A DNA stretch of 64,000 bases from Phoronis australis (Eukaryota > Animalia > Phoronida). A program made the position numbers and the translations under genes. This document shows, in pieces, positions 771 to 42,812 of the stretch (positions are counted from its first letter, which is position 1; the number at the start of each line of letters is the position of its first letter). The notes beneath the pieces are model-generated. The model had not been told where the DNA came from. It saw only the letters and a program-made list of their open reading frames with translations, and made no database searches. The stretch is from positions 1,707,755 to 1,771,754 of the forward strand of contig NMRA01000001.1 of NCBI GenBank assembly GCA_002633005.1. Reading direction: 5' to 3'.

Positions 771-3700
771 TTCTTCAAAACATATAAAATTACAAAATTT
801 TTAGCAAAAAGGGAGACTGCTGCTATACGTTTTAACAGCATTTGTCTTAACATAATTCAGTGACAGCTAGTAATCCCATACTTATCAAGTATGCAAACTA
901 ATATTATAAGACCTTCCCTTCACTTCAGAATACAACCTGCCAACTGCTGTCCATGTTAAGCATAGGCAGTATACTTAACCTACAGTTGGTTCTTGACAAG
1001 GCAGGTTGGAACATGCCTGAGAACTAAATACATCTTCAGGCATGTCTACCTAGAGTGACTGAATTCCAGAACATTTTAAAGCAAACCCTTCAATAAAGAC
1101 AGTTATATGCAAGATTGGTAATCCAGTGCCACAAATACATCAAAATTGTGCAGTAACCCAACTTTTAAATCATGTTCAAATCTGTGACAAATTGCCAGCT
1201 GATAAGGTTGATATATTCAAGGCACAGATAGAAATGACCACAAATTTCAGATGCAACAAAGAGAAATATGACTTCACTTGTATTTTCAACTTAATCTTCA
1301 TATTTATATCTTGCACACATTCTGGAGGCTAGCAAAGAATCTAACCAAAATTTATTTTTCATGCCTCTCTCACTAGGAAAAACAACTACAGTAGACTCTC
1401 AGGTAATTAAGATGTCTGTGGAGACTTATTTTTATACCAAATGCTCTGATGTCCAATACTATTATCATGAATCCTGACAAGCAGGCATTCTGCTTACAGT
1501 CATGTAGGACAATGATTTATGATAACTAGACAGACAGCATGTGACCAAATCTACTGATAACATGATAGTAGGCTTATAATGTTGCACCAAATTGTTACCT
1601 CTGTACTCAATAGACTAAGATGAAAAAATGGTTTTGCTGTGCATTAGTACTGCCACGTTTCTGTAAGCAGAAGAAATCGGCCGAATCATTTAAAGTCACA
1701 ACTGCAACACATATTTATGCACTCATGAAAACTTTGCTAGAAGTAACTTTTCCTATGATTTTGTTGAGGACAGTAAGCACAACTAGAATTTCACCAAACG
1801 ACACAATATGGTTTACAAATGATGGGTTGCAAAATCAAATTCCTTTTTCTAAACTATAGCTGCCACCAGACAACATTTTGACAAATTCCCACCCCAATGT
1901 TAGCAGTCTTTTCAAAGATTAGTAAAAACCATGTTTGGCAATAGGGCTTGAAAGTGTGGGGACACTGTACTGAGGTAGTACAGGAGATACAACCATCTTG
2001 GTTCCAACTCTTGCCACTTCGCAATGGGACATAACATTCAATCAAACGGTTGTACTAGAAGCATCCCCATTTAGTATCTGTTTCAGAAAAAAACATGGTC
2101 TTCTATGTTCGATTCACAGATGCTTTGACATGAGCTCCAGGTCTCAAAGTTTCTTTTTGTTAAATTTTGCCAGTTCAAAAATATGCCGGTGCAAGTGAAA
2201 AGGCTACGGCCATGTTGTTTGTCTCCAATTTACAGTAGTTGCTAGGGTGTAAGACGTCATCAATTTCCTCCCTATTGGTTAATATTTGAAGTTGATAAGA
2301 TCTTACTTTAGTTAACATTTAATTTTGTAGTGATTTCAAAGTTGTGATTTCCTTCAAGCCACCAACTGGGTGTTGTTAGTTATCACATGCCAATGTCGTG
2401 GATTATCATAAGTGATGATTAAATAAAATTATGCAATCTGCACACTTTTGTGTAAGGGTGATAACAGATAATTTAAGCCCACATACCCATCATCCCACTC
2501 AGTAGTGATGACCTGGCATGGAATGTAATCTTTATAGAATGTACCCTATAACACAGACTTTACTATGCTAAACAAAAGCATTAGTTCGGAGACAAACATA
2601 TTCGTTAGGAAAAGTATACCAACCACGTTAAATGAATTCAAATTAATGATGAACAATTTGATATTAACAGTTATGAACTGACTCATTCCAACCAAAAATC
2701 AACCAACACCAAAAGCATGATATCCAATACCCCTTTCACGAACTGGCTAAAACACTAGCATTGTAGCTAGTACGTACCAGAACTGTCGTCAGGTGAACGG
2801 TTACAAGTGTCACTTCTGCTGGCAGTATGGTTTGAATTACCTGCAGTTTTAGGTGGCACAAGTATGTAACCACACTGCTTATTTCAGAGAACACACTCAC
2901 AAACAGGCGGGTAATGGCCTTTGTGGCCTTTGCTTATTGTCGCATTAATCAATTTATGGCTGAGACTGAGCTGTTTTGACACCAAACTTAGCTTAAAAGC
3001 CACTCCAGTGGACTACTGGCTAAAATTACCTCTTCAATGGCAGCTCATCTCTATGGCTAACTAGCCTTTATCCCAGTGAAACTGCTACCATTTTCGCCAG
3101 GCATGTGAATCTAGTACAAAAAACCAGAGTCCTCTATGGAATATCTGCCTGTACCGTTTTCCCTAGGCAGGTGAATCAACTGAAGCAAAAGAGACCTCCA
3201 TACAACACCTGCCTGTAGGGTCCTTTCAGACAGGGTTATGCAGCAAGGATTGGGACTAAACACTTGCAATAGGCATTTTCCTTGTTACAGCATTATAACT
3301 TCTATGCACAAACACAAATATATGAGTGACAAATCAACACAAAAATGCAACTGAAAACCAAAGCTAAGAATATCTGATGAGAATATCAAAAGGGTTAAGG
3401 GTTGACACTAGCTGTAGACTAGACTCCTGGAGTAAAAGTTGTTATAAAATCCTTTCACTCAGTTTTCAAGCTAAAGTTCATATTCTGACACAATCTGTAG
3501 CCAACACTTTGCCCGACAGATAGAGAATGTCTCAATACAAGTAACACACACAACTAGCAGAATAAGCCTGAGGTTGAAAGCAGTGAGTACAGGCATATTT
3601 TTCCATAATTTAGGTGATGCAACACAAATGTTTTAAGGATTCATATGTCACTTAAGGAGAACTTAAGCACTGAACAAACTTGAAGAAATTATGCCAACAT

Positions 3701-6700
3701 ACCACTTTCTTCAAAGTATACGACATGGTTCACACGGCAAACAGTCTCTTTCATACCTGAAACGAAATCGAACACAAGTCAAGCTGACTGATGGTTCGAC
3801 AAAAAAGCCGAGGGTTCAAAACCTGACAGATACGTCACAGCTCACCAACAATCAAATACTCAAACAAACACAATCTGTCACATCACCAGGGGCCGGGATC
3901 TAATCGACCTCAAAATTATTTTTGTCATTCTCCGATCTACTTTTGTATGAGATCAAAAACAGTATCTGTTATTCTGCACTCAGGAATATTATGCAGTTAA
4001 CAAAAATGAGCTTGTAGTCCAAGTTTGCATTTGATGGCTCCTCGAGATTCTGTGTAAAAACTCAAACTTTTAGTCTCAATGATGGGGTCATTAAGTACAA
4101 ACTAAGATGAAACAGTTATTCACTTGAGCACATACAGAATAAGGCACTGGCTCACCTTGAATTTGTACAAAAGGAATTTGCACAAAAGCAGAATAGATAC
4201 TGCCAAAAATAATTTTTAGTTCAACCTCAAGTAAAAGGTGCCCTGGTGCTCCTGTTAATAAATCAGTCTTGTATTAAAACACTGTTGGTTAAATCATGCC
4301 ACACCATATGGAAGTAACAACGTAAGTCATGTATGGTACTCACAGTCCTTCCAACTGCACAGGCCAGCCAAGACAAGCACACACGCACCCTTGACTGACT
4401 AATAAATACCAGGATTGATGAGGTGAAGGGTCAACACCAACACACTAGATGAGGTGAAAGGTCAAAACCAAGACTTCCAGACAACCTGAAGTGAACTACA
4501 GTCTTCTGAAGTTATGCGACCTATTTCAAATTCAATGTCCAGCTTTTTTAGGATTTTAAAATAAACAATCTTCTGTATAAAACAAACATTACTTGAAACA
4601 AGAACAAATTGGTATCCAAAAGGATGTAACAAATCACATATTGAGAAAACTGTGTGAACAATCAACCTTCAATACACCTCTGAAGCAAAATGGATTATTG
4701 TCCCATTTCTCTTGTTGCCAAGGTGATAACCTTTGACCATACAGGGAAAATTCACCAGAGGTTTGCAAGACCTCATGCTGGTTCTCCACATGTGTGCATA
4801 TGGACCTTATGCAAGTATGTAAAAAATTGCAAAACTGCACCCATTGGAAACCCACATGTGGTCTATCTGATCATACAGTGTATATATGGCAAAGGTAAAT
4901 TTACAGAGGGAATTGTTTATAATAAGGTAACCTTATCAAAAATGAGTTTTGTTTACTTAGTTTAATGTTAATAGTTCACTGATAAAACAAAGGGTAAGAA
5001 GAAAAGTTCACAGAACTCCATTTGGCCAAGACTGTGTTAAATTAAGACGAGCTGTGATGACGGTTTTCTAAAAGAGGGAAAGGTGTTGTCTCACTCTTGG
5101 AAGAGGCTGTCATCAAGTCTTAAGGAAATAACATTTAAATTGCATATCTGAACTGGTTCAATACATGACCAAACATGTAGCCAAATTATAAGAGGTGCAA
5201 TGTATTATGCGAAATGGCCCTGGTGCAAACTCATCAGGGACTAAAAACTCTACTGGCTTGATTTGAATAACCTACTACCTAGAATACATGTTTATCTTCT
5301 TGGTACTTGGGCTATTTATTGGCCTGACAATGAACATTGGTAATGTTTTATAAAGAAACTCTTATCTAAGGCCATCAGTTTAATGTTTACTAGCTTGAAA
5401 TCCTATGCCATCTACAGAGCAAACATGGTGCTTCCAGGAATTTCAACCAGACCAAGGTGGGCCTGCTGGCTATTGAGAATGGTCTCGCAAATCAAAACAG
5501 CATCATGTCTGTACAGGGACTGCCATGACACTGAGTTAGATCTCAGTCTGACCTTGAAAACAAGACAAAAACTAAGTGGAAACCGACTAAGTGTTGAACA
5601 GTCTGAATGAGACCCCTGTGGAGGTGTTGTATTACTGGCTCATTTTTGGCCCAAGCTGTCCTTTTCCATTCATTCCTAGTTCATTTGATAAATAGACAGT
5701 TCAAATCAAATGTATTCAGGTAAAACAAAAGAGAATTACTCATCGTGGCGGCTGGGCAGAAGCCAATTAATCATCACAGTAGTCTTCCATGACAAAGAAT
5801 TAAAGGGAATGAACAGCAGGGTTGGTAAGGAGGCTAAGCCATTCCGTATTTACAATATCGGTGACATAATAATTATCATCGGTCTTTTTGATGACAGAAT
5901 TTTGTGTGAATACATTTGTCTAGTTACATGTTTTGTACTCTCATTTACACAAATAACAATACTTCACTTTTACACAGTAGATGGTTCTTTGAATCATCAG
6001 ATATTCTCAGAACAAGTTTGACACGACTTAGACTAGATTCGCTTATTGATGTCTCTTTGATTTAAAAAAATGTTCGTGTTTAATATTTAAATAATTTCCT
6101 ACAGCATTTGAGTAATTCCCTAAACCTCTACCTAGCAATATGATTATCAAATCTCTAGATATGCATTTGAAATTTGCCACGTCACCCACAAAATCAGAAT
6201 CCAACAATGTGCGAGTTGATAGTTGTGAACAGTCATATAATGTGTTCTTTGTTAACAGATCAATGGAAAAAACATTCCTCTAAACATTGTCCAGCTATTG
6301 GGACCGAGTTCTTCATCCTCTAGTTTTTCAGAAACTTCCGAAAACCGACAAAGCTGTTTCACCCTCATATTGAGCATATTTCACACAACATGTTCTCATT
6401 CACACAGTCTGATTCATCCATTACATCGGCCGAGTCGTTCATGGGCAAATGGGGGATAAGTCTCATTTATTTTCAGCGTGCCTGGCGGCGTTATAACATA
6501 GCCTAAGAAAAACATCTTTTTAAAACTTTAAATGATTAACCTATGCCTGAAACTTAAAGAGGTAATCAACCTTCATTAGGGCGTTCTCCCTTTCAGTGAC
6601 TTTACCAGACATAGACTGGTGAGCATGTGATAAAATTTAGCTCCATTGTTAACTGCCAAGCACAGTCTTTTGTCTGATATGACAACATGCAGGTCAATTA

Positions 6701-7151
6701 TCTACCAGGCTTATTACCGACCACATGTGAACACAGTCAAACCCAGAGCAAAGTGGTACGTTCGGAAAGAATAGATTGTCACTACTTCGGATGTAACTAA
6801 TTGGGTGATTTTGGCGATTCAGAAACAAAACATGGTGAGCACTTGACCAATACAGAAATGCTATTGGTTTATGTTCAAATATGTTATAAATTAACTTTTA
6901 TTTTTAACAGCATAGCCCATTCAGGCTAGATACGATCTTATTGAACATCAGAGCAATTATCAAACAAAAGAGAGCCGGGGGGAGGGGGGGGGGCTCTTCA
7001 ACCATAAATGCTAGAATGGAGTTAATCATTCGTGTAAGATACTGGCGACGGTGGTCATCCTCCCAACTTGTTGGGCTAAACAATCAAACAAGTTGGGCTC
7101 TACGGGAAAACGCCATAATGTTCCTTACATTTTTTCATTGATATCACTTAC

Positions 7152-7180
7152 CATAAATTATAAAATTTAGTCTCAAATTG
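7152..7180 (-). other. Candidate 29-nt non-coding exon
   Basis: tgttttttgctactaaacag|CAATTTG...TTTATG|gtaagt. Confidence 0.35.
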
Positions 7181-7545
7181 CTGTTTAGTAGCAAAAAACA
7201 GGCTTTGAAGGAACCGAAAGCTGGTTATTGGATGAGACCAGGCTCTATAAGTTAACTAGTCAAAGCGTGTCATCTTATGGGTAGAACATTGTCTCAAGGA
7301 AAAACGATTAAGTTGCCGGTTCCTTGAAAACCTAGAAAAACCACTTTCATCCTGGGAAGGACCAAGTTGAAACCAAGTCACCAAAATCAAAAGGTTGCTT
7401 CTTGGCCAGAACACCAGAGAATAGAAAACGGCGAATAGTTTGCAAGTACGGCTTTAAATAAATGAAAATTTCACGTGCAAATAATGTTGACAATGACAAG
7501 AATCAGGACAGGGTAAGATCATAAAATACATGCAAGACAACTTAC

Positions 7546-7601
7546 CAACTGAGGGCAAAGAGCCATGTACCATCATGCATACGTCATGATGGAATTTTTA
7601 C
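7546..7601 (-). other. Candidate 56-nt exon with stops in all three frames
   Basis: gttattttcttgtag|GTAAAAATT...CAGTTG|gtaagt; TGCATG inside the exon and 11 nt into the downstream intron. Confidence 0.5.
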
Positions 7602-8942
7602 CTACAAGAAAATAACAACGATTAGAGGATGAATGTGAGACATGTAAATATCATATTTAATTCAGCAGATTACGAGTGGTACCATGGCAATGACATCACC
7701 CCCTCCACGTTAACTTTCAAACCACGCAATTGTCAACCGTGCAGTAATGAAGTTTGTTTTAGTTAAAGCCTCATGTACAGCTAATCAGGTCTTGTTAAAA
7801 GACCAGATAAAAGACTAAGAAACGAAGTTTGAGGTAACAAATAGTGTGACACAAACAATCAGTGAGCTCCACTCAAACCATTAATTATATCCTATACTAA
7901 ACAAGAGACATAAACTGCCTATGTTAAATTCCTCTAAAAGTGTTCCATTCCAAAATGAAGAAAAAAAAGGGTTTTCAACATGGAGCTGCAAGTATTTTCA
8001 CTAACTTTTTGCACAAAAGACATTTGAAAGAGAGCTTGAACTATACATATCAAACTGTTTGAAAGTTAACGTACTGAAAATTGCATGTTTCAAAATTCTT
8101 AAAAACGAAGTTAAATCAGAAACAGAACATATTGCAAGCTTGCCAAAAATCTTTTCGGGTAAATACTTTTTTCAAAGTTAACTGCCATAGCAAATCATCA
8201 GTGAATTTGACCGAAGTAACTTCGACTCCGTGGGTTCATAACAGGAGACAACACGATGCACACAACATTCAGTGGTAAATAACATCAAAACAGTCTAAAA
8301 TCAACAGACTATGTATGCAGAAAGACATTAGGCAACCTTGCACTTGATGAAATCAAAAATGATAGCTACCTTCATTGTCGTCACTTTCACTAACATGTCA
8401 AAAATAAAACTGAGTTATACAATGTATTCTTGCACAAAGCCAGTTGCTACACGTATCACCTTTCAGGACTATGGAACAGAATAACGGAACATTTTCATTG
8501 ATGAAGAAATTCATTTGAAACGCATTTATTGCATCTGTGCTTGAGCAGGTAATGTGCTCATATAATTTTTAAGATGGCAAAGATCTGGTTCCAAGTGCAT
8601 ATGATTGGATGGAATAAACCTTTTTACGGATATCGAAAATCGATGCGTGCGCCTCCTAGAGTATGGAACTGTAGGATTTCAGTCACTGAATACAGAATAA
8701 AGGAGGTGTCATTTATGTGTACCTCTGCTCGCTAAGTTGGAAGTTGATATAGCATAGATGCTTCCTATGTACTCACATCTATGAATTTGTGGTTGTTTGA
8801 AATGTTAACGAAATGTCGCGATTCCTACTGATCCCATATCCATGTTGACTTGACGACTGCTATCCCACAATCCTTTGGGTATACAAAGTCTCACGCTATC
8901 CGTAAAAAGATCACTAGATGAGAGCATAATAGCACGTTTTAA

Positions 8943-9222
8943 ATGACTTCAGCGTGAATGAAAATGAAACAGACGTTTCAAAGAATTGACAAGAATGAAA
9001 ATGAGGCAAAGAAAATGTTCTCAACATTCAGTCAGTTTTCACATGAAATGAAACTTGTTCCGGTGAACAATCTAGAGTAGCAGTGAGACACAATACCTGA
9101 GTAGCGCACTTCTGGCCCTGGTGAAAATACTCGTGCGCAGTCGTGGGTAGAATGAAAATGAGGCTTGGGAAAATGCATCTTGACCCAACGGCATGATATG
9201 ATGAATTTGTTTTAGGACATGG
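8943..9222 (-). promoter_or_regulatory. Dense YCAY cluster (putative Nova-binding element) including repeated UCAUUUUCAUUC
   Basis: 18 YCAY on the transcript strand in 280 nt (hand count) against 1 on the other strand; gaatgaaaatga occurs at about 8956, 8993 and 9150. Confidence 0.65.
9097..9117 (-). CDS. Candidate 21-nt microexon (xPEVRYSG) of an alternative Nova 3' end
   Basis: tattttcaccag|GGCCAGAAGTGCGCTACTCAG|gtattg; open in phase 1-1; embedded in the YCAY cluster. Confidence 0.4.
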
Positions 9223-11985
9223 TCACTTCCTCCAGAGTTTAGCCACTGAATTCAACACACATCTACCAGTACTTTATTCTAGTTTGCATGGGTGTTCCAT
9301 TAACATCAACATTAAATTTAGTGGTTGAATTACAAATCGCTTCCAAAGCTTTTCTTGCTCGAAACAGTACCATTCTCAAAAGGCACTTAAAAAACATGCA
9401 TCCACTAAAGCACCCCTCAGGGGTCCATACCCCCTACTCAGAAACTTTAAAACTGTTGTTAATGGAAGAAGACAAAGTTCCTCCAATGTCTGACCATTAA
9501 GAGACCCCTTCTGTCCAATATGTAGGACGGTGAAAATTCTCTACATTGGGTCAGTGAAAACTTAATTATATTGCTTACGGTCCGTGACTATACACAATTT
9601 TAGAAACAGACAATAGTGGCCGTCCCGAATTCGTCTCGATATTACACAAGAGGTCCATGAAAATGTCAGCTATTTTTGAGGACAAGTAAAATATTAATTG
9701 CCAAGTCTTTTTTTTCAGACCCTTATGATACAAAACAGTGTCTGATATTTGAGAAATGCATGTCCGAATCTTCAGAATCAAGAGAGCTCAACTTCACCTC
9801 AAGTTTCAGAGTTTCAAATTTCAGGGACTCTCCCTAACTGGAGAATTTTTACCATAGACCACACAGCATTCAATTAAAACCTAAATTAATTTCAACCTGT
9901 GAAATGACGTTGTTGTGGCTAAAATCTGGAGAACGCTGTAGAGGCATAAAGAGACCTCAAGCAACAAACCATCATAACTACAGAACATCTGAAGAAACAA
10001 GAGCACAACTGGTGAACAATGTAATCAACATGATAGATACAATCCAATAAGCGAAACCAAAACGTAAAACGATTGTTCGGGCACATTGCAACATTTTGGT
10101 TCCCCCATACTCTCATTTTTGTCATGCTTAGAGACTTCTTACAAAATCGCTTTATTTCTTATTTTGTTCTCGACTTTTGAATGAAATACGATGTTTATGT
10201 AGCTAGAGACAGCTCGTGGCAGATCCAGTTTCTGAAAAATTTTGATTGGGAACACAGTACCTAGTAATCTATAAAATAACTTGATAATTTGGTGCACAAA
10301 TTGTGTATTCGGATATTCGGAATAAAAAATCCCTTCATGACCAGGAATATCTGCAGTCCTCCAAAATACAGGTCCATGGCCATACTTTCAAAGCCACAAT
10401 AGAAATTTCTATGGTTTGTAAGGTTTCTCAAATTGAACAGCAGCAGCGAGTGCTAAACAAAAACAAGGCTTTATTAGAAACAGGTCACTTTTTTGCTCAT
10501 CTACAAAACAAACATAAAATTACCATTGAAACCATAAACTCTCTTAGCTACATATCAGTTCTCATTCAACTAGAAGGCCCAGATTGTTAATTGGGGCACT
10601 AGAAGGGAAAAATATTCCATTACCAGATGAGTGCGTATTGTCAGTTTTCAAGCCACATTATTTTGTAAAGTGTACAAACACTGAAAATTAAACACGGATA
10701 GTCGTCACAGAATAAGAATGAAGATAAGGTATTTGAAACCCCTTCAAACATTTGCAGTCAGGAAATGGCAATCTTAAAGAAACAAATCACCACATGCTTC
10801 CGGGTTACCAATAGCATGACCCACCTCTTGATACAATATATCTTTAGTTAATAAATTTTATGATGCGCGAGTAATGAGCTAGCCAGAACCCCGTCACGAG
10901 AATTTTTTGAAACGCGAGTGCAGAAATATTTAAAAAACAACCATGTCGGGTCTCTAGTAGAGAGCAGGAGATTGAGGTATTTTCCAGCGTGAAAAAGGTA
11001 AGGAACCACTGAAATTCATTGTTCGTAGGATAAGCATGCTTCTTGGAGCTAAAACTGTGATGAGTCGAGCATTCACAAAGACACAGGCACTTTTAAGCAG
11101 CCTGTAGTCACATAAACTGAGGATGGACGGTAAGCCGAGCATGGGCACTTAAAAGTGAAAATTTGGACATTTCAGGAATGGGCGGTGAGCTAGGCACGGG
11201 TATTGACCAGGACAAGTACAGTATACATTGTCTAAAATGTTGACAGTCGAGGTCCTCTTCCAACCACATAAGGCATGCTAACGAAGTACAAATTCTGACA
11301 AGACAAAGAGATGAGCGCAGATGTATTTTCAAGGTAGCTTCACTGAAGCTCAAGTCACACTCTTTGTGCAAATGAGAGGATACAAGAATGATCAAGCGAA
11401 CGTAATGGTGTATTCAGAAAACAGGCAAATACATGGCAGACAACGTATGACAGAAGTATGACTTTATGTTAACTGAGAGTCTTAAAATATGTTTAACAAC
11501 AGAAAACACATCTTAAAATGTGAACTAGCATCTAACGATAATGAATCAAAATATGCTCATATAATGATTAACTAACATCTTAAGGCCTGCTAGAGAAACT
11601 GGTTTCTGTGAAATCTGTTTTTCCATCACCTCCCACATGAGAGCAAAAATGATAAGGACGAAAAGGTCAAAAAACACAATGAAATCAAACATGAACACAG
11701 TCAATGCCTTTTAACAGAGTCACGTTATGCAGTGAAGATGCTTGTAATGCAAACTTGAAAATAATTAAAGTACTCCTTGAGAGCCAATATTTCTGAAGAG
11801 TAGTTTCAAGCTGCGTTTAATCTTGGACACCTATGTACTCCTACAGTAATGCATTCACTTTTGAAACAATGTAAGACGGATGACCCCTATTACTTCCAGG
11901 TTAAGTTATACTGAGTTTTTCAGTAATAACAGTGAAGTTATTCACACAGCACTAGATGGCATGGGGAAATGTTGAGTATCTAACG

Positions 11986-12364
11986 ATGAGCTCGGCACGG
12001 CGCAAACTGAGAGCAATATGTAAAAATGAACTAGAAGCACAATACACACATGAAAAAGTCAAATGCTCGAGTTAGAGAGATGATAACCATGACATCTTCA
12101 CGCAAAAAATGACGATCTGATTCGAACAAAAGTTGACAACAAGCAATGCTCACAAAAACATCAGTCAGTCCTTCGAACAACGGCACCGCGAATGACATGA
12201 ATGAAAGAACTTCAAACGTTATGACGGTGTGATGAAAATTGAGTGGCAAATCCTCAACAACAGACTGCTCCAAATGCAGGGCAACGTTAGAATGGACGTT
12301 TTTATAAAAATTAGACGGTACAATGAGGTATGGAGGTATATGACCAACTGGCTACTGAGTATGA
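11986..12364 (-). promoter_or_regulatory. YCAY cluster (putative Nova-binding element) directly after the Nova stop codon
   Basis: Hand count of about 18 RTGR (YCAY on the transcript strand) in about 380 nt, against about 3 YCAY on the opposite strand. Confidence 0.6.
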
Positions 12365-12376
12365 CTACAAGTGTGC

Positions 12377-13578
12377 CTAACGCTTCGTATTCTGCCGCGC
12401 TCGTCGGTTTTCCTCTTCGGAGAGCCGCTGGGTGATGTACATGTATGCACGCGTCACGCACGGCCCTGTCCCGGTCACTGTGACCACGCGATTCTGAGTG
12501 CCCGGTTTGAATACGCCCTTCTTGGAGATTTGGATGTTGGCACCTGTCTGGTGCTGAATCTCCAGTATGCCCCGCCCACCCAGACCCAGGATGACGCCCA
12601 CTAGGTTCTCAGACACCTCGATCTCCTTCCTTGTAAGCTCGTCAACATCTGGTTCATCAAGCAATTTGTCGTCCATATCCATACCAAGACCGAATGAATT
12701 CTTATTCATAGGTTCACGATCGCCAACGAAACCAGTCCGCCCGAAGCTGAAATCCCCAAACATGTCACCAGAGGACGACGTTCCCCCGAACAGCGCGCTC
12801 ATTTGGCTCGGCTCGCCCATGCCGCTCGGGTTGCTGCCCACGGGTCCGAACAGGCTGCCACTGTTGCCACTGTTCGTGTTCATACCCCCACCACCAAGAC
12901 TGGTTCCGCTGTTGGAGCCTGCCAAAAGGTTAGTGCCCGAGTTGGACAGATTGGTGCCACTGCCGCTTCCCCCCATACCGGTCGATGCAGACGCACCCAG
13001 CGAGGCGATATTTCCCAACAAATTGGCCATGAGACTCCCTAACAGGCCTCCACCCTGGTTCATGCCCAGATTGAAGAAGCCATAGTTGGCCAGTGTGGCT
13101 AAAGCACTCGTGATCTCCTCAGTAGCCAGCTCAGAATAACCACTACCTCTTAGTGTTGACTTGATGTTCTCAGTCGCCATGTTAGGAAGTCGCTGGTGGT
13201 GGTGCTGCTGATGCTGCTGCGACTGCTGCTGGTGGTGATGCATGTTTTGCTGGTTGCTGATGTTCAAGTTATTCATCTGCCCGCGGATGTTAGCCCCACT
13301 CAGGCTGCCGTTTCCACCACCGGAGTTCTGCAGTCCGCCACCAATCACGCCAGTACCAGTCCCACGGAAGGGGCCACCGCCCATCATCCCTGCACTGGCC
13401 GGGCCTGAACCCATGCCCTGGCCAGGGCCACTGGCAAACGGTGAGCCCGTAGGGTTGGAGCTGGCCACCGGACCGGTCACTTCGGAGTAGCTGATATTGA
13501 GGCAGCTGCCACTCTGAGGGTCTTCAGCAATCTTCTCCAGAATCATTTGCGTGGCCTGGCGAGTCTGGTCTGGCTCAC
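12377..13578 (-). CDS. nova: Nova large exon: end of KH2, low-complexity linker, KH3, stop
   Basis: tgttgtag|GT GAG CCA...; open frame to TAG at 12379-12377; GC-rich coding composition; KH3 at the C-terminus. Confidence 0.95.
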
Positions 13579-16500
13579 CTACAACATTCATGTGAGTAAA
13601 TGGAGCAACAGTGACACGATCAACACATTATGTCTCATTACGGAACCAGACAACATCATATGTCTCATTACAGAACCAGACAACAACATTATATGTCTCA
13701 TTACGGAACCAGACAACATTATATGTCTCATTACGGAACCAGACAACAACATTATATGTCTCATTACGGAACCAGACAACAACATTACATGTCTCATTAC
13801 GGAACCAGACAACAACATTATATGTCTCATTACAGAACCAGACAACAACGTTAATAACTTGGCAGAAAGAAAACAGTGTTTGGCTATAAAATGTGTACGA
13901 AGGGTAAGGAACAATGGAACACGAAATGTAAGGAGAAAATGTCAACTTCCAAGCCAGTTTGAAACAAGATCACACGTCAAAGAATGAGTATCAGTAGGTG
14001 ATGGTGACTTACACAAGACAATTATTGGAGTGATGGTATTTAATCTTTTTCTGTTTAGCCCCAGCATTAATGCAAGCCCAGAATATAACTTGTTACATTA
14101 CATGCACCAAAGTCTCAAGGATGCCAGCAGTCACACCAACGCACATTTCTGTTCTAAGATCCTTTATAACCACTCACCAGCGACTGTAATGCACCTCTCG
14201 GACAGGTTAAGGTCCTTAGATTTCTGCGAGATTTGAACGTAGGCACCACTTTGTTCCTTGATCCGCCGAATGAACACACCACACTTTCCAATGATCATAC
14301 CAGCTGTGCTGTTGGGTACCAGAATCTTCACCTGTGATAAAACCAAAGGTAAGTCCCAAACTTAAATGATACGCACAGAAAATAATCCAACCTCAGCGGT
14401 TATTACCAGCCATAACAACGGAGTGCAAATGGAATTCCCCCTTGTGACAGTAGAATTGAACGTCATGCATAGCCATCTGCCAAGACAGGGAACTTACCGG
14501 AAATTTAATAACGTGAAAAAGCCATACATTTTCCTATAGTTAGGATACAATCAAGAGTAAATTACATTTATAATATCTTATGAAGCTGCAGCTCAAAGAT
14601 GAATGATACACGAAAGCCTATATACAATGGGTCACCGTCACCACAATTTGATGAGAGAGTTGCACTTTTGTGTAGCTGTACGAGTTATAAAATGTCCAGT
14701 TGCATTAAAAATCGGAATTCACCTTCACGACAGTTGCGTGGAAGCCGAATTCATCGTCAATGTAGCCTTCCTTAATGAGCGAGAACGAAGGAGAATTAAC
14801 AGGAAAGTTCATAAGGAGGCTAGGTCCTTCTGCAATTACAATTTTGCCCCCAAAATGTTTATTAACTCATTTTTAAATGCCCACATATTCATATTTGGGT
14901 GCATATTGCTGTCATCTCTGTCTGGGCATCCAGGCATCTGCATCTCCTAAATCCCTTGCAGGATCTTGGCAGGTGCATTCCTATGGGGTTCACAACAGAG
15001 GGCGACAAGTTTCGGACCGACCCGAATACCGCTGTGCCTCCTAGTTTAAGTTGTTACGTTACCCTCTGTATCTTCAAAGGTCCTCAACCAATTTTCATGA
15101 AATTTGCCAAATAGGCATGTGTTAATGAGATGACTCTACAATTTCATTTTCGGATGGATTCAAGGCATTTTGCTTCACCTAGAAGCCATATCAACCAAAC
15201 CCCTCTTAGAAGAATGATTGTGAAAATTGTCATGTATGTTCTTACTATGAAGAGGACGGATGGCGACGACATTCTAACGACTTCGACTACTGTGCTGCCT
15301 CCTAGTGCCAGTTTTGGTTTTTTGCGCCCATGGCTGTATCTCCTTAACACTATGCAGGATCGTTACTTAATTTAGCAAGTGTATTTATGGGAATATGACA
15401 ACGGACGACGACTTTCGGACATATTTGACTACCGGTGTTCCCCCTAGTGGCAATTTTAGTTTTTTGTGTTTAATTCTACATCTTCAATGGTCTTTAACAG
15501 ATTTTCATAAAATTTCGAATATAGGCATCTGTCAGTGAGATGACACCAACCTTACTTTTTTGGATGGAATTGAGGTATTTTGCACCACCTAATGGCCATT
15601 TTTGCTGTTTTTGAGTCTGCCCTCTATCAACCAAACCATTCAAAGAAGGATTGTGAAAATTGGCAAAGATGTTCTTAGTGTGAAGAGGATGGTTGACGAT
15701 TATTATCCGACTTTGACTGCTGTGGCGCCTCCTAGTGGCAGTTTTTTGCGTTCATACCTGTATCTCCTTAACCTACAGCAGGATCTTTATTAAATTGAGC
15801 AAGTGTATTTACATGAAGTTGACAACGGACGAGGATGACTTTCAGACGAATCCAGCGAACGCTGTGCCCCCTTGAGGCAATTTTTTTTCTGTTTTACTTT
15901 GCTTCTCAGAAGTTCCTTGACATATTTTTATGAAATTTGGTAATAAGCTTTCTATTAAAGAAGCGATGGCACGTTCCCGTTTTCGGAAGGATTTGATTTT
16001 TGCGCCATCTAGTGGCCATTTTTATAATACAAATATACACCGCCAGAAGCACACCTTTAGAGATACACTCGTGGGCACATTACAACACTCCGCATTGGTC
16101 TTGTTGCTGTTAACAGATTCAGCTGTCGTAACAATTTCGTCCGATTACCTTCGTCTTGCAGTTGTCTCTAGCCTGTGGTTTTTGAAAATTGATGCGGTTG
16201 CGTGGAATTTTTAGTTTTTCATTATTTGAAACAGTCCACCTGAACTGAACAGAAGCAATGCGGGTTCCTATTATGTTCTTTTCTTTATTCAACTGAAACC
16301 AGTTTCACTCTAGCAGCACTCATCGTGCGAGGCACTAGGTCATACAGCTGACTTAGTAAGCTACTGCATTTAAAACCTTATTGCATATGTTTATGTGGCT
16401 TTCGAAAAAATCCTAGATCTTGGCTGAAATTGACGTGGATAGGCATTTTTTTTAAGTAGTGAGGGGCAGGTTTCAAAATAACCCAGGAGACGGAGCAGAA

Positions 16501-19500
16501 ACAGCACTTTTTGGACTTACCAGTCATTTTCAGCCAGAACAAGCCAGAAAAAATTTACATATGGAGTTCACTGCCATGACAAGGACACAGAATATTGTCT
16601 GTTTTCTTTTGGCACGTACTGTAGTTCAGACGGTTCAGTAATAAACCAGTTAAAAACAAATTGTTTAAAAGCAACAGATAAAAACAAGTACAGGCAATCG
16701 CATCTTAAATTCATTCAAACATAATCAAGCTGGTGATATCCATCAGCTTTTCACACACGGACCATTTCATAGGCGGTACTTTTCAAAGCGCGACTGCATT
16801 ATAATTTCCTTCTGATCCACTTATCCCACCTGTTTGTGTCGTTCCAAGTTAACCTTGCCGTCAATCTCACTCTTGGGGTTGGGGTCGGGCTTCTCACGTA
16901 TCCTCTCCATCATGAAGTTGTGCACCTGTATGATGGCCTCCATGGAGCCTGTGATGAGACAGACGCGCTCGTTTGTACCTGGAACAGAATTCATGAAAGA
17001 AATGGAACACCACATAAATCCGATACTGTGCCTGAGCTACATACAAGAAGACAGACCAGACAACACGCCTTCAATATAATAATCCGGAGACATGAGGCAA
17101 GTGTAATAAAAGTGAAGGATCGTTCTCGCGCAGCTAAAATGCAGAACACACAGGAAAAGATGAAAAAAATAACCAACGGAAAATTCAAACTAGTCAGGAA
17201 TTCCACAATTCATGAACATGTTTGAAAGTTTGTTTCTATACAGTGTGGAGTTCGTATGTCAAGTCTGGTAATAACTGCATTGAACTAGTGCCAAAAGTCC
17301 AAAATTACTTACTTTGCTTAAGAAACAACCAATCCCTCAAAATTTCAAACTTGGTGTATAGCTTTTCAAACTTGACGCTAAACCTACCTATATTCAAATT
17401 TGTCACTGCCACGAGTCAAAATGGGTTGTGAAGAACACCGACATTCAAGTATTCCTACCTGGATAGAAATCATTGGACTTCGACATTTTCACCTTAGCAC
17501 CAGCATCTTTCTGCACCTGAGCAATAGTCTCTCCCCCCTTTCCAATGATCGCTCCCGCCGCCACGCTCGGTACGAGAACCTTCAGGTGAACCATGTCGGC
17601 TGAAAAAAGTGTAAACCTCAAACTACACCAAGGGCGGGTAAGAAATAATTTACTGGACGTATCACTACTGAAGGATACCACAAATCCACTGTGTCTTTCC
17701 ATAACAGCTGGCGGATCTTTATCTAAAGACTGAAAACTGCCAAAATTTGTGATATGGGTGCAATTGTATTGCGATGGGTGCAATGTTACACTAAATATGT
17801 GCCCATCAGGTACACCACATTGTTAAGAAAAGCAAGACTTCATTTCTCTGGCTGTATTTCTTAAATGTAAGAGATGTTATGGTCGTGTGTTCTAGATTTT
17901 CTATATCACACACAAACTACTGCCATCTATTGTTGAAATAAAGAACTCTGTGTTGCAAGATGGCATTGTGTTGCTGATTGTTATATAGCAATCTCTTAAC
18001 TGGGCCTAAGTGGACATGTTTGTAAAGTCCAATCGCTAACAATGAGAGAATGACATTTTCAACAAAATTTGAACTATGGGATTATTATTATAAATTATTG
18101 AGACATGCAAGAAGTCAAGGAATTGACAAAACATTGCACTAAATTCTGACATTTTAGCCAAAAATAAAGCTTAAAAATGCTTGCAAGTAGTCATGTGCTC
18201 AAATAATCATTTTCCGACACAGCGGCGCACGATGAAATAAGCCTCGACACTATATAGCTACAGGGTCGTTGATAAACAGCAATCAGCATTCCTGTATGGA
18301 TACAAGTATAGTGGGATGTTTAATGGAGTTTTTATAGAAATTCTTTGCGGCCACGATGTCATCAAATTGCCACTGTTGTGCGGTAGGATATTCACACAAT
18401 TTACACCAAAAATGCCCGAAATCTCAAAATATCTGCGAATGAAGGAAATGTGCTTTGTCCTTTGTCAAGTTCTCAAGAAACATTTTTGACAGTTTCAAGA
18501 CTATGATGAGATTTTTGAAACGACTAGTCTAATTTACAGCTAGTGTACACGGCTACTACTGCTTCGGTTTCCATGGCAATCTCACTTTTACTTTTTTCTT
18601 TTAAAACAGAAAAAGTTTACATCTTAGTACGATCTCAGTTTGTTGCCCGACATCTAATGCAATATTATATTGTGATTCTGAAGCCACTTAATTTTTTCAA
18701 AAACGATTCAACTTGTAATATAAAGAAACCACAAGAAGAATTCACTGACCACTTGCCTAAGAAGATTGCCTACTACTGGTACTCCAAATATTAAAATCTC
18801 CGCTAGATTCCCTGTTAAGCGAAGAACTGTCAATACCTAACATACCATTAATTTACCATCTGAAACATAGCATACTACTTGCATACCTAAAAAAATTCCC
18901 AATGACTTACCACGAGGAGCATCCCCAGAGTGTCTCATGGATGAATCATCCCAACTGGACGTTCCCATATCTGTTCCATCATCTAAATACAAGAAAAAAC
19001 ACACAGTTTGGCAGCACAAACATGAAGCATCACTCCCATTTAAAACTTATACAAATCTGCTTACTCGCAAGTTTCTAAAATGGTGCAGTAACTTGGAACC
19101 ACTTTCCACAAACGAGAAAGCATGTTTTGGTCAAGTGAAATTGCATTTTTAACATACCGGGATTTTCCGTAGATGAGCCCGTGGACGTGCATTTGGAAAC
19201 TGAAAATTTTCAGGCGTTTTAATAACACCAAATAAATGCCAGGGCGTTCATTTGGAAAAGACGGGCATGTAAACAGAAAGACATAGTTTTGCTGACTTTT
19301 GACATTTTTTACTTAAAACTGTGTTTTTAAATCTTATGATATTAAATGCGTAGTTTATCAACACTTTGTTGGTTTTCAAAGATGATAAACACTCCACAAA
19401 ACTGAATTTGCGACAAAAAGTTGACGCTGAGTGGGCTTTTAAGAGGAAATTTTTCAAATAAACGCCACGCTATCTGGACACTTGACACCAGAAGTTGTAA

Positions 19501-22500: not shown

Positions 22501-24503
22501 AATCAACCGACACTCACCTTGCCCGTTACAGTCGTTTAAGTGAAAAACAATGCAATAAACGTTATTTTCTTGCGTAACTCTCCGCCTTTTCTAACAATGA
22601 AAAGTATGTCATCGTTTTGAAAACAATACGCTCGTGTCACACGCACGCGCCATTTCCTAAATTTTCGTGACAACTTAGAAGAGGCAAAATTTGTTCTGAA
22701 ATTCGGTTTTTCGGTATCGAAATTGTAATGAAGTGAAACCAGTTCCAATAATTTGTTGTGACGTGTACGCAAGCTCGTGAAAGAACAGCAATTGATTGAA
22801 GAATCCGCGAAAAAAGAAACTGGCCAATAGGTGATGCAATATTTCATGGCGCCGAAAGCCGTAGCTAAAGATCGCTCCACAACTTTAGCAGCAGAATAAC
22901 GGTAGAACGCCATTTTTTCCAACACTGTTAAATACTTGTTTTGTTTACTCAATGAAGACTGTAGTTTTTAATGACACTAATTTTGTGTCAGATTTTATCT
23001 TACCACTTTTTTACCCACATCCGTGCAAAGCTGTATATTTATATTTACATACAGCTTTGTACCAAGGCTATGTTTTCCTTAGGCAATGACCATCGCCTCT
23101 GTTGGCCCGAACCAGAGGCGATGTAGAGGCTATAGGCACTTTGTACGCCGGAAGCTTTTCGGCGAATTATGCCTCGCACCGACAAAACCATCAAAGTCAC
23201 GTTGTTATAAATACCTTTTGCGCATAGAGGAACACCTTAGGAGGTTGTCGATGTGTTTAAGTTCTTCCAACTCGAACAAATACTCCCGTTATGAAACTTT
23301 TTCTTCGAGCAGTCCCTATTTCAGTTCCCAAAATCGTGAAATCAAAATTTTCATTTTTTAACCAGGCCGAAGGTCAGAAGTTGCGATCCTACCGGCGAAC
23401 TTTGAAAGCTGAAGTTCCCACCCTTTGCGTACGTGCTGCCGGGAACCAGCCGTGCATTTGCCGTGTTGTTAAACATTAAAATGTCAAATATGTGCACAAA
23501 GACTTTTAAATGTCATATCAACAGCATTTATTTTTATCAAATACAAACAATAATTCATTGAAATACAAACAGTTTCAAGTAACGCCAATTAAAGACAAGT
23601 ATAAGTGGTGGCATTTTGGAAACGAACATTTGACTGACAAGACCGCAATGGCTCACCTTTGGCCTATTTAAAAATTATTGAGGTTATGAAGTCACATCAC
23701 CTAGCGAGCGCGGTAAAAGTTAGAGCGTGCGCAGCACAAAAATTTTGATTTCACGATTTTGGGAACTGAAATAGGGACTGCTCGAAGAAAAAGTTTCATA
23801 ACGGGAGTATTTGTTCGAGTTGGAAGAACTTAAACACATCGACAACCTCCTAAGGTGTTCCTCTATGCGCAAAAGGTATTTATAACAACGTGACTTTGAT
23901 GGTTTAGTCGGTGCAAGTCATAATTGGCCGAAAAGCTTCCGGCGTACAGAGCGCCTATAGCCTCTACATCGCCTCTGGTTCGGGCCAACAGAGGCGATGG
24001 TCATTGCCTATGTTTTCCTATGACTGCAAAGCAATGATTCAGATCAAAACAATCAGGTCATATCAGTGTAAAATGATCCTTGTTGGTCATGCACTTATTG
24101 AAAATGAGAATTAAATCAAATGATAGTTGGCCAAAGCAAGAGTTGACCCAAGTACCACTTGACAAGGAATTCACTATTCATAAATCTCTGCCAGTTACTA
24201 CTCAACTCAGTGACAATCTCAGAATTTCGAAGTCCGTCCATCATCATAGTGAAAGCAAGTTGCGATTCACATATATGCAGAAATTTTGAATATTCAAAGC
24301 AACACAATCAACTCACCACCTCCTTGGTTTGATTTTTTCGTTACTCCACTTTCACATTCTCCATCAAGAGGCCTTTTTCTTGAATCAGATTCCATGTCCC
24401 AGATTTCGCTGCGCGTGAACGTTCTTGTCTTGAACGAAATCACGCGATAATCAACGTTATTCTCGTATATTTCCCCACTAGAGGCCGTAAGCTTCGACGT
24501 CAT
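12377..24503 (-). CDS. nova: Nova/pasilla-family RNA-binding splicing regulator (3 KH domains), spliced gene span
   Basis: Five GT-AG exons with consistent phases (187+141+149+154+1202 nt = 1833 nt, 610 aa plus stop; 634 aa with the 72-nt cassette). Diagnostic Nova motifs: [30 protein letters not shown]...DFYPGTNERVCLI (KH1), QVKILVPNSTAGMIIGK (KH2), EDPQSGSCLNISY...GPVASSNPTGSPFA, and KH3 EVSENLVGVILG...ISKKGVFKPGTQNRVVTVTG. Confidence 0.96.
13626..13849. repeat. Intronic minisatellite, 7 units of 30/33 bp (attatatgtctcattacggaaccagacaac[aac])
   Basis: Directly visible tandem units; they produce the periodic ITEPDNN and MSHYGTRQQH ORFs in several frames. Confidence 0.95.
14178..14331 (-). 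CDS. nova: Nova exon, most of KH2
   Basis: ttatcacag|GTG AAG ATT...GTC GCT G|gtgagt; encodes VKILVPNSTAGMIIGKCGVFIRRIKEQSGAYVQISQKSKDLNLSERCITVA. Confidence 0.95.
14877..16105 (+). mobile_element. HINE/DINE-1-like (Helentron-associated) non-autonomous element with internal ~415-bp tandem units
   Basis: 5' atgcccaca and 3' gtgggcacat subterminal IR; ends in ...tcttgtt; the motif tttt(c)atgaaatttg...ata(g/a)gc recurs at about 15092, 15502 and 15926; same family as 36042-37326. Confidence 0.7.
16830..16978 (-). CDS. nova: Nova exon, end of KH1 and KH1-KH2 spacer
   Basis: ctgttccag|GT ACA AAC GAG...AAA CAG|gtggga; encodes GTNERVCLITGSMEAIIQVHNFMMERIREKPDPNPKSEIDGKVNLERHKQ. Confidence 0.95.
17459..17599 (-). 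CDS. nova: Nova exon, first part of KH1
   Basis: ttttttcag|CC GAC ATG GTT...TAT CCA G|gtagga; encodes [46 protein letters not shown]. Confidence 0.95.
18911..18982 (-). CDS. nova: Probable 72-nt in-frame cassette exon of Nova (DDGTDMGTSSWDDSSMRHSGDAPR)
   Basis: Acceptor ttttttcttgtatttag| and donor G|gtaagt; phase 1-1, length divisible by 3, no stop in the Nova frame. Confidence 0.7.
19157..19589. mobile_element. TA-flanked MITE (Tc1/mariner superfamily, Tc2/pogo-like)
   Basis: Imperfect ~24-bp TIRs ccgggattttccgtagatgagccc / gggctactctacggaaattcctgg, TA on both sides; internal direct repeat aacaccaaataaatgcc. Confidence 0.75.
20945..21537. mobile_element. Old MITE with long degenerate inverted arms (at least 110 bp)
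   Basis: taccattagtccctccagattttc...gctcgttaggccgct is the diverged reverse complement of agtggcccgacgagc...gaaaatctgaaggtaccaatggta. Confidence 0.7.
22518..22950 (-). promoter_or_regulatory. Putative internal promoter / alternative first exon of Nova
   Basis: Locally CpG-rich; YY1-like CGCCATTT at about 22648 and 22909; CCAAT at about 22824; consensus donor AAG|gtgagt at 22517. The 5' boundary is uncertain. Confidence 0.4.
23080..24010. mobile_element. Mutator/MULE-like foldback MITE, 931 bp, ~272-bp TIRs, 9-bp TSD
   Basis: Near-perfect inverted arms 23080-23351 and 23739-24010; TSD tgttttcct at 23071-23079 and 24011-24019. Confidence 0.93.
24317..24503 (-). CDS. nova: Nova coding exon 1 (N-terminus with NLS)
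   Basis: ATG at 24503-24501; encodes MTSK...MESDSRKRPLDGECESGVTKKSNQGG, resembling the Nova SRKRPL...TKR NLS region; donor G|gtgagt at 24316, phase 1. The true start could be the second Met (MESD). Confidence 0.88.
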
Positions 24504-40300: not shown

Positions 40301-41638
40301 TCAAACAAAATGTGGTCTTGTTATTTATGCCATTGATCTGTGTGATTGTTCCTTAAATATTGTTTTTGCTAAATTTTATTAAAAAAGACAAGGTCACATG
40401 ACCCAATTAATGCCAGTTTGGTGTAAAATCAATAATGAAACTCAAAAGGCCTACTTGAGATCTCGTATGTCATTGAATACTTTTTGAGTTGTGTTAACTC
40501 AGTGTACAATAACTAGAGGAGAATAGGAGTGAGATCAGGTATGAGTGGCCTTTTGAATGCATCGTAACTCTGAATAACAATCGAATGTACTCAGCAGTCG
40601 ACGCTTAGGCTAAACGCCAAGTTGCATTTGGAGACCTGGCAAAACTCTCAGGTCGCCAAGCGAAATCGACAAAACTGAAAATCTCGGACAGGCGCCTAAA
40701 TCAATTTCCAGGTTTCTTCTCTGGGCGTCGTAAAACAACAGAAAAGTTCGCCGTAAATACCTAAATATAGGCGGTTAACCTTCATTCTCTAGCCAGTGTA
40801 CGGACATAGAACGCAGATGACTGCACTGGGCTAGTGACGCGAATTTTGCCGATCTTGCCCGATTTTTGCTGAAAAATTCCTACTTGTGTTCATTTACTTC
40901 CTCTTGCAATTTAAACGTGGTTTCAATGTGCTGATTTCATGAAATGAACGAACAGTTGTGAATCGAAGATGATAAATCTTGTAAAACTGTTTGTAATTTA
41001 AAGTTTGGAAATCGACATGAACTTTGAATGAAATGAATTTAGAGGGATATATATGTGTTGTCTGACTTTGATACTCTCACAGTGGTGACTTTGTTGCGAA
41101 TTTTTCCCCGAGGTTGCAATATTGGCAACCTGCATTGGTATTACTTGGATGCCATTGCTATCAATCAGAAACTCATTGTTTTTTTATTTCTTGGGTGAAT
41201 CCCCAAACACTATTACAAAAAAATTGAATAGGGTTATTGTTATCTGATAACTAGCGCCATACAAGAATGATTAATTGCTTGCTGATAACCTTTGCTAGTA
41301 GTGTTGTTCCATGGTTAGGAGAGTAATCCATCAGAGGGAACATTTTGAGGAATGAAACCTAGTATGTGAATTGTTAAAATATGCCACCACACAAGTGACA
41401 ATTTGATGGCACGATGGTCATTAAACATTTATAAAAATGCTGGGAAATAAATCTGACTGCATTAAAAACCCATACAAAATGCAGAAAGATGTCCACCAAG
41501 CACTTCATTGCCATCTGGTAACAAGGTGTATTTCATCGTGATGCCCTTGTATTGAAATTGTACTGTTAATCCCTATAAAATCCTTCGAAAGGGTGACCTT
41601 TATATGGACGTTCCCTACCATTAGGTCCTTTATTCTTA

Positions 41639-42734: not shown

Positions 42735-42812
42735 TGTGTGTGTGTGTGCGTGTGTGTGTGTGTGTGCGCGCATGTGTGTGGGCGCGTGTGTGTGTGCGCG
42801 CGTGCGTGTGTG
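42735..42812. repeat. (TG)n/(CG) compound microsatellite
   Basis: Directly visible; a variant copy lies at 50404-50480. Confidence 0.95.

What the first reader, a model, noticed from the sequence alone, without database searches (positions are those of the whole stretch)
7152..12382. Candidate Nova autoregulatory splicing circuit hidden in the apparent 3' UTR
Seen: the last codon and stop of Nova (AAG C|GT TAG G) overlap a phase-1 GT donor (C|gttagg). About 18 YCAY follow directly, then three small GT-AG exon candidates (9117-9097, 7601-7546, 7180-7152). Joined, they read ...QNTK R PEVRYS GKNSIMTYA*, keeping the terminal Arg (C|GG). Established: Nova KH domains bind YCAY clusters, clusters downstream of a 5' splice site tend to enhance it, and vertebrate NOVA1 regulates its own splicing. 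Inference: high Nova levels switch the transcript from a proximal stop with a long UTR to a spliced isoform with a new C-terminus. Its stop lies 56 nt upstream of the third exon's donor, which could make it NMD-sensitive and close a negative feedback loop. The KH2 exon donor (14178) is also phase 1, so skipping the large exon into the same exons would give a KH3-less product.
Basis: partly seen in the sequence, partly recalled or inferred. Interest (0 to 1): 0.85.

Follow-up and report, generated by a model that had tools for sequence, protein, structure and literature searches.

The report
Nova 3' end splices into neighbour
RNA reads show that about a quarter of this invertebrate's Nova transcripts likely run past the usual end and splice into the next transcription unit, rarely also cutting out Nova's last RNA-binding domain; Nova-type binding motifs cluster there, so self-limiting feedback is plausible but untested, and the stop-codon splice site originally proposed is not seen in use.

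Summary
No junction is listed for the stop-overlapping donor (12382), exon 9117-9097 or exon 7180-7152. The donor is weak and not conserved, and the proposed new stop codon is absent in 27 of 33 reads. Exon 7601-7546 is real. Coverage is continuous through a 4.8-kb 3' UTR at 26-29% of coding depth and ends at donor 7546, which splices to 3756 (33 reads, three runs). That exon also receives a likely first exon ending at 4344 (70 reads), so it belongs to a downstream unit. An unpredicted donor inside the last coding exon (13147) joins 7601 in 4 reads of one run and deletes KH3. The two densest YCAY windows on this strand flank the stop and the 9117-9097 candidate. KH3-less Nova isoforms are also annotated in two octopods and several wasps, bees and ants. 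Best reading: poly(A) read-through plus terminal splicing, probably influenced by Nova itself, in the manner of TDP-43. Nova dependence and NMD are untested.

The parts
24317..24395 (-). predicted first coding exon of Nova (ATG to phase-1 GTGAGT donor)
18911..18982 (-). 72-nt in-frame exon between exon 1 and KH1 (boundaries read from the sequence)
   Evidence: AG/GTAAGT; stranded read depth 8.2/5.7/4.6 in bin 18719-19100; its joints were not visible
17459..17599 (-). KH1 exon a
   Evidence: read depth
16830..16978 (-). KH1 exon b
   Evidence: joint 16830>14331 in 45/39/25 reads
14178..14331 (-). KH2 exon, phase-1 donor at 14178
   Evidence: Pfam KH_1 E 1.6e-12; loose ends at 13579 match its end in 28/42/26 reads
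13579..14177 (-). KH2/last-exon intron, covered by reads in two of three runs; reading into it stops after 4 codons
   Evidence: depth 20/21/0 at 14042 and 11/15/0 at 13815; translation
12377..13578 (-). large last coding exon: linker, KH3, terminal Arg and TAG
   Evidence: Pfam KH_1 E 9e-11; homologs
13141..13149 (-). internal phase-1 donor (exon side ends at 13147); joined to 7601 it deletes KH3
   Evidence: 0/4/0 reads, 4 starts, GT-AG ends, 5 letters fit either side
12376..12384 (-). stop-overlapping GT proposed as donor; no use seen
   Evidence: no joint listed; rank 178 of 431; not conserved as a donor
11959..12364 (-). YCAY cluster 1, mostly TCAT, directly after the stop
   Evidence: 18 in 400 nt, z 2.9; second densest 400-nt window of the minus strand
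11400..11700 (-). inferred proximal 3' end: depth falls about threefold near 11500; no AATAAA; 12 YCAY in 301 nt
   Evidence: depth; hexamers; YCAY
7546..11475 (-). extended 3' UTR, continuous stranded coverage, ends at donor 7546
   Evidence: mean depth 10.1/8.9/7.1 against 0.1-0.5 in the bins 4643-6350
8921..9222 (-). YCAY cluster 2, on both sides of the 21-nt candidate
   Evidence: 19 YCAY in 9250-8900; densest 400-nt window of the minus strand, 20 in 9345-8946
9097..9117 (-). 21-nt candidate microexon; no splicing seen, read through as UTR
   Evidence: no joint or 21-letter insert listed
7546..7601 (-). 56-nt segment: acceptor 7601 used rarely, donor 7546 used by nearly all transcripts that reach it; its stop codon is polymorphic
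   Evidence: 7546>3756 in 15/9/9 reads at depth 15/11/12; 13147>7601 in 0/4/0; codon effects
7152..7180 (-). 29-nt candidate exon; no splicing seen although its donor scores best
   Evidence: no joint; depth 1.5/0/0 in bin 7090-7490
4344..4396 (-). exon ending at 4344, likely first exon of a downstream unit (5' boundary inferred from depth and a TCAGT initiator-like motif, label recalled)
   Evidence: 4344>3756 in 31/14/25 reads; sequence
3703..3756 (-). 54-nt shared exon with an ATG at 3754; splices on to sequence not in the window
   Evidence: joints and 101/70/84 loose ends at 3703; loose sequence not found in window; no Pfam hit

Best explanation
About a quarter of Nova transcripts likely read past a weak proximal 3' end near 11500, carry a 4.8-kb UTR and splice from donor 7546 into an exon at 3756 that belongs to a likely downstream gene; a rare donor inside the last coding exon (13147) joins 7601 and deletes KH3; Nova binding to its own YCAY clusters would favour these long, probably NMD-prone forms and so limit full-length Nova. 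Shown by reads: the step in depth, continuous coverage, the junctions 7546>3756, 4344>3756 and 13147>7601. Shown by sequence: three YCAY-rich zones and no AATAAA at the step. Inferred: that the step is a poly(A) site, that one molecule spans stop to 7546, that 4344 ends a first exon. Untested: Nova binding, Nova dependence, NMD.
For: Depth 27.7-36.8 over coding exon and proximal UTR, 7.1-10.1 from 11474 to 7632, 0.1-0.5 in bins 4643-6350, all on the Nova strand in three runs. Junction reads at 7546 (15/9/9) nearly equal local depth (15/11/12). 13147>7601 ties exon 7601-7546 physically to Nova coding sequence (4 reads). The two densest YCAY windows of the 64-kb minus strand lie in this 3' region; 12 YCAY bracket the depth step. 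TCAT near proximal poly(A) sites goes with their repression in brain, attributed to NOVA (PMC5437728, passages). TDP-43 makes short isoforms by splicing from its last coding exon into its 3' UTR as a product of autoregulation, cleared by NMD (PMC11848802, passages). Junctions 50 nt or more after a stop and long UTRs both mark NMD targets, with an EJC role also reported in flies (PMC6173133, passages). NCBI-named KH3-less isoforms exist in Octopus vulgaris and Argonauta hians, leaving the linker at the same residue with the same 3-residue tail, and in five named hymenopterans leaving after one shared motif. In related Nova loci YCAY after the stop exceeds the antisense count in 23 of 26 and the distal rate in 9 of 11.
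Against: No perturbation or binding data. The long form is abundant at steady state (26-29%), which does not suggest strong decay. 13147>7601 is seen in one run of three and has 5 letters of microhomology, so a template-switch artefact or splicing noise is possible. In related loci the control motif RCAY is as over-represented as YCAY (observed/expected 1.68 against 1.58; in the window 1.65 against 2.82), and no control with other genes' UTRs was run. No nucleotide similarity of the UTR to 46 related loci (all distant). The octopod and insect KH3-less break points are not at the window's site, their DNA was not seen, and many other short hits look like intron run-on gene calls. Read-through splicing between tandem genes is common without known regulation (PMC2953495, passages). 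Exon 7601-7546 carries a stop-loss and a Met>Lys difference among alleles, so its peptide looks unconstrained.
Confidence: 0.45

Rival explanations
1. Unregulated leak: a weak poly(A) site lets polymerase run on, the spliceosome uses a strong donor it meets (7546) and the next acceptor, and 13147>7601 is noise; the YCAY clusters serve mRNA stability or localisation, or reflect UTR composition.
For: 7546 ranks 2 of 431 GT sites; no AATAAA at the step; unconstrained peptide; single-run support for 13147>7601; RCAY control in related loci; conjoined transcripts are common (PMC2953495).
Against: YCAY in the window is enriched beyond composition and beyond RCAY, and is placed at the stop, the depth step and one distal zone; the long fraction is steady at 26-29% in three runs; KH3-less isoforms recur in other phyla.
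Confidence: 0.3
2. One reading: the 21-nt segment 9117-9097 is a Nova-regulated microexon spliced between an upstream phase-1 donor (13147, 14178 or, least likely, 12382) and 7601, hidden here by tissue mix or NMD. The exact circuit proposed (12382>9117>7601>7180) is given about 0.03 of this.
For: The densest YCAY window of the strand brackets this segment, 7 in the 100 nt before and 11 in the 200 nt after; its length keeps frame; acceptor 7601 is functional; only 18-19% of each run was read and tissue is unknown.
Against: No joint or inserted 21 letters listed at depths of 3-17 around it; donor ranks 21 of 431; YCAY upstream of an exon predicts skipping in the Nova map (PMC3737533, passages); 12382 is a poor, unconserved donor; 7546 splices to 3756 rather than 7180.
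Confidence: 0.15
3. The RNA spliced at 7546 starts from a promoter inside the Nova 3' region and is an alternative first exon of the downstream gene, independent of Nova mRNA.
For: No single read or contig spans stop to 7546 (table 8); exon 3756 already takes another upstream exon.
Against: Coverage shows no step between 11474 and 7632 in two runs and only local dips in the third; 13147>7601 links Nova coding sequence to this exon.
Confidence: 0.1

Closest known systems
TARDBP/TDP-43 autoregulation and sTDP43 isoforms (PMC11848802, passages; PMC5437728, passages)
   Same: An RNA-binding protein whose last coding exon holds a donor that splices to an acceptor in the 3' UTR, giving a short protein and an NMD-prone RNA; alternative 3' ends on its own transcript.
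   Different: Different protein family and motif; here the path continues into a likely neighbouring gene; dependence on the protein and on NMD is shown for TDP-43 and untested here.
Vertebrate Nova1 exon 4 autoregulation (described in PMC3737533, passages; the 2005 primary paper seen only as a reference title)
   Same: YCAY clusters on Nova's own pre-mRNA near an alternatively processed region.
   Different: The vertebrate case is an internal cassette exon; here the events are at the 3' end (UTR extension, UTR intron, internal donor in the last exon).
Conjoined genes / read-through transcripts (PMC2953495, passages)
   Same: Transcript of an upstream gene spliced into the second exon of a same-strand neighbour, skipping its first exon; some are NMD candidates.
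   Different: The commonest pattern drops the upstream gene's last exon; here the whole Nova ORF is kept and a donor 4.8 kb into the UTR is used. The neighbour is unidentified.
KH3-less Nova/Pasilla isoform records in Octopus vulgaris (X2), Argonauta hians (X3) and hymenopterans
   Same: KH1-KH2-linker followed by a short new tail instead of KH3.
   Different: Break points lie roughly 80 or more residues further along the linker than the window's 13147 site; database models only, DNA and read support not seen.

Membership tests
Nova/Pasilla protein family | three KH domains with KH1-KH2 close together and KH3 after a long linker; best database matches are Nova/Pasilla | tested here: met
Nova-regulated RNA processing target | YCAY clusters above background on the sense strand near the regulated site | tested here: met
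   (window observed/expected 2.82)
Nova-regulated RNA processing target | Nova binds the clusters and processing changes with Nova level | not testable with these tools
   needs CLIP and perturbation
Nova-regulated RNA processing target | clusters conserved in position in related species | tested here: inconclusive
   sense bias in 23 of 26 distant loci but RCAY control equal; no close relative available
   none listed in three runs at depth 27/29/21
   8 of 12 related Arg-ending loci have CGT, none with G at -1, 3 with G at +5
Autoregulatory unproductive splicing (TDP-43 type) | a spliced isoform with a stop upstream of further junctions | tested here: met
   7546>3756 and an onward junction at 3703 lie far after the Nova stop; 13147>7601 truncates the ORF; linkage on one molecule inferred
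Autoregulatory unproductive splicing (TDP-43 type) | isoform rises on NMD block and on excess of the protein | not testable with these tools
   no perturbation data
Conjoined / read-through transcript | exons of two separately promoted same-strand genes in one RNA | tested here: inconclusive
   exon 3756 takes both 4344 and 7546 donors; promoter and identity of the downstream unit not shown, no long reads

The most novel reading that the evidence does not exclude
Invertebrate Nova runs a TDP-43-like feedback loop at its 3' end: it binds its own YCAY clusters, blocks the proximal poly(A) site, drives read-through that splices into the neighbouring gene, and opens an internal donor (with a neural 21-nt microexon) that yields a KH1-KH2-only Nova with altered target choice; deleting KH3 by terminal splicing has arisen repeatedly across bilaterians, as in octopods and hymenopterans.
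Probability: 0.2. Interest if true: 0.7.

Novelty: new variant of a known kind. Interest (0 to 1): 0.42.

Why it matters
Nova sets neuronal splicing programmes, and its self-regulation is described for a vertebrate cassette exon. A 3'-end route would show a second way to dose this factor and would couple it to a neighbouring gene. A natural KH3-less Nova is of interest because KH3 deletion left Ciona Nova active on Agrin and relieved an inhibition (PMC12445529, passages), while human NOVA2 variants that lose KH3 cause a neurodevelopmental disorder (PMC9543825, passages). The junction coordinates make the idea directly testable. If the leak explanation holds, it is an ordinary read-through.

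Tried and rejected
No whole genome is held, so the exon after 3703 and the identity of the downstream unit stay open; its sequence is not in the window, a 20-residue Pfam scan gave nothing, and a tblastn of the 17-residue frame against the 46 loci gave only short chance-level matches. A recalled resemblance of that frame to a centriolar coiled-coil protein could not be tested and is not used. The second read lay was swamped by an interspersed repeat at about 15000-16030, hiding 205 joint rows, so 14178>9117, 14178>7601 were not judged; 14178>3756 lay in neither stretch. The run search listed no holder on record as RNA; the three raw RNA runs came by species label and were judged by laying them. 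blastn of the 3' region against 46 related loci: best E 0.22. Two trees did not place the organism beyond non-vertebrate, non-arthropod bilaterian; no invertebrate deuterostome was in either set. The idea that the conserved terminal Arg preserves a donor was rejected. Earlier-findings look-ups returned nothing. A bacterial promoter scan was irrelevant and empty. A list of 88 downstream ORFs of related loci was made but not scanned. Literature searches listed no paper on 3'-end autoregulation or natural KH3-less isoforms of invertebrate Nova; the library lacks most subscription papers and supplements were not read.

Full report
Gene. The minus strand carries a three-KH Nova/Pasilla gene: KH1 exons 17599-17459 and 16978-16830, KH2 exon 14331-14178, and a large last coding exon from 13578 to the stop at 12379-12377. 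A predicted first exon at 24395-24317 gives a 575-residue frame. The best of 291 protein hits (120 listed) are Nova/Pasilla of annelids, nemerteans and molluscs at about 40% over the last exon. Two trees leave the animal's place open among non-vertebrate, non-arthropod bilaterians.

Observation. The terminal Arg codon and stop do contain a GT at 12381, the three AG..GT candidates exist, and the joined translation and 56-nt spacing are as described for the window's allele. There are 18 YCAY in the 400 nt after the stop against a shuffle mean of 11.6 (z 2.9, p 0.005). The two densest plus-strand windows (21 and 18) lie opposite the Nova coding exon. On an approximate donor matrix with recalled frequencies, the stop-overlapping site ranks 178 of 431 GT sites, 9097 ranks 21, 7546 ranks 2 and 7152 ranks 1; a simple small-exon filter gives 2 candidates on the sense and 4 on the antisense strand of 12375-800, so such candidates arise by chance.

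RNA reads. Three raw, stranded RNA runs with the same species label and one contig set were laid on 800-13600 and on 7090-19100; 18-19% of each raw run was read, tissue unknown. The joint table is complete (14 rows; threshold 3 reads from 2 starts in a run). It lists none of 12382>9117, 12382>7601, 9097>7601 or 7546>7180. Depth next to the stop is 27/29/21, depth just after it is as high as in the coding exon, and a contig runs unbroken from 12499 to 12045. Use of the stop-overlapping donor is therefore at most about a tenth in these samples (my bound from the threshold). Three GT-AG joints on the Nova strand are listed: 7546>3756 (15/9/9 reads), 4344>3756 (31/14/25) and 13147>7601 (0/4/0). 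Mean depth is 27.7-36.8 from 13600 to 11475, 7.1-10.1 from 11474 to 7632 (26-29% of the former) and 0.1-0.5 in the bins 4643-6350; the bin 7090-7490 has 1.5/0/0. Junction reads at 7546 nearly equal local depth (15/11/12), so almost all RNA that reaches 7546 is spliced there. Exon 3756-3703 has an ATG at 3754 and splices on (101/70/84 loose ends) to sequence absent from the window. The exon ending at 4344 is short by depth and follows a TCAGT motif near 4396, which I read as a first exon (inference).

The proposed new C-terminus. The third base of the TGA in exon 7601-7546 differs in 13/13, 10/10 and 4/10 reads, making a Cys codon, and a Met codon three codons on changes to Lys in 15/15, 11/11 and 5/12 reads. 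In those alleles the frame runs to a TGA at 3753-3751 in the next exon. The stop and the 56-nt spacing are thus not fixed in the species, and the segment behaves like unconstrained UTR. These are read-versus-assembly differences, taken as alleles without a matched DNA run.

Relatives. A metagenome scan gave 46 Nova loci, 32 after collapsing identical C-termini. Of 12 that end in Arg, 8 use CGT; none has G at -1 and 3 have G at +5, so no donor is conserved at the stop. After dropping one locus whose frame breaks in KH3 and five with under 400 nt downstream, YCAY after the stop exceeds the antisense count in 23 of 26 loci and the distal rate in 9 of 11 with long flanks; but RCAY is equally over-represented (1.68 against 1.58), so this is weak support, and kin share it. 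The Gly-Ser context of the 13147 donor gives G|GTAG in 5 of 7 loci with the same residues, all five from one series of records and probably related. A search limited to 139-445 residues (120 of 316 hits listed) returned NCBI-named isoforms without KH3: Octopus vulgaris X2 and Argonauta hians X3 leave the full-length sequence at the same Ser/Val boundary (a Val codon begins with GT) and share a 3-residue tail; Cataglyphis, Nasonia, Cephus, Venturia and Dufourea isoforms leave after one shared motif. Many other short hits look like intron run-on gene calls, and the DNA behind these records was not seen.

Mechanism. Most Nova mRNA likely ends near 11500, where there is no AATAAA and 12 YCAY lie within 301 nt. 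About a quarter likely reads through, and splices from 7546 into the second exon of a downstream unit, leaving junctions 4.8 kb after the Nova stop. Only such long precursors can offer acceptor 7601 to the internal donor 13147, which removes KH3. By the known Nova maps, binding close to a poly(A) site represses it (PMC5437728, passages) and position relative to an exon sets inclusion or skipping (PMC3737533, passages); Nova binding to its own clusters would therefore shift output toward long, NMD-prone or KH3-less forms. This step is inferred. The closest worked-out case is TDP-43 (PMC11848802, passages). NMD by downstream junctions or long UTRs is widespread but lineage-dependent (PMC6173133, passages). 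Against this reading: the long form is plentiful, 13147>7601 rests on 4 reads in one run with 5 letters of microhomology, and read-through splicing between neighbours is common (PMC2953495, passages).

What stays open. KH2-donor skips were hidden; the 21-nt candidate might be used in neurons; the downstream unit is unidentified; no long reads link stop to 7546. Searches of the held library (listings only, plus the passages cited) showed no report of this arrangement in an invertebrate Nova; paper supplements were not read.

Verdict. Observation partly confirmed; interpretation partly supported. A real but different 3'-end splicing architecture, a new variant of a known kind, with autoregulation plausible and untested. 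Interest 0.42.

Noticed in passing
window 13579-14177 (-): The intron after KH2 is covered at depth 11-21 in two runs and 0 in the third; retention would stop the frame 4 codons in, giving a KH1-KH2-only product. The two runs share alleles, so genotype or mapping may explain it. It holds a 33-bp tandem repeat, 7 copies, at 13629-13853.
   Followed up: partly
window 18911-18982 (-): 72-nt in-frame exon between exon 1 and KH1 with read coverage; octopus Nova records show optional inserts at the same place.
   Followed up: partly
window 3751-3756 (-): In the stop-loss allele the KH3-less frame ends at a TGA that overlaps the ATG of the downstream frame (ATGA); probably coincidence.
   Followed up: no
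window 23080-24010: Inverted repeat with 272-nt arms, 98% complementary, 387 nt apart, in Nova intron 1; looks like a foldback or MITE-type insertion able to form a long hairpin in the pre-mRNA.
   Followed up: no
window 15000-16030 and 6600-7070: Interspersed repeats that attract many RNA reads from elsewhere, the first mostly from the opposite strand.
   Followed up: no
window 41370-48965 versus 49039-55372; 29532-30592 versus 30797-31862: Near-identical tandem duplications (94-100%) with Ns near the seams; possibly uncollapsed haplotypes in the assembly.
   Followed up: no
window 57047-57454 (-): ORF with a weak zf-RVT match (E 0.23, below cut-off), possibly a decayed retroelement end.
   Followed up: partly
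related loci: All 13 Arg-ending Nova sequences (window included) use a CGN codon for the last residue, 9 of them CGT, while 43 of 139 other Arg codons in the same frames are AGR; unexplained, not independent across kin.
   Followed up: partly
L003, L007, L008, L010 (after the stop): Very YCAY-rich proximal UTRs (18-27 per 400 nt) in a group of related Nova loci that also mostly keep the G|GTAG context at the internal donor.
   Followed up: partly
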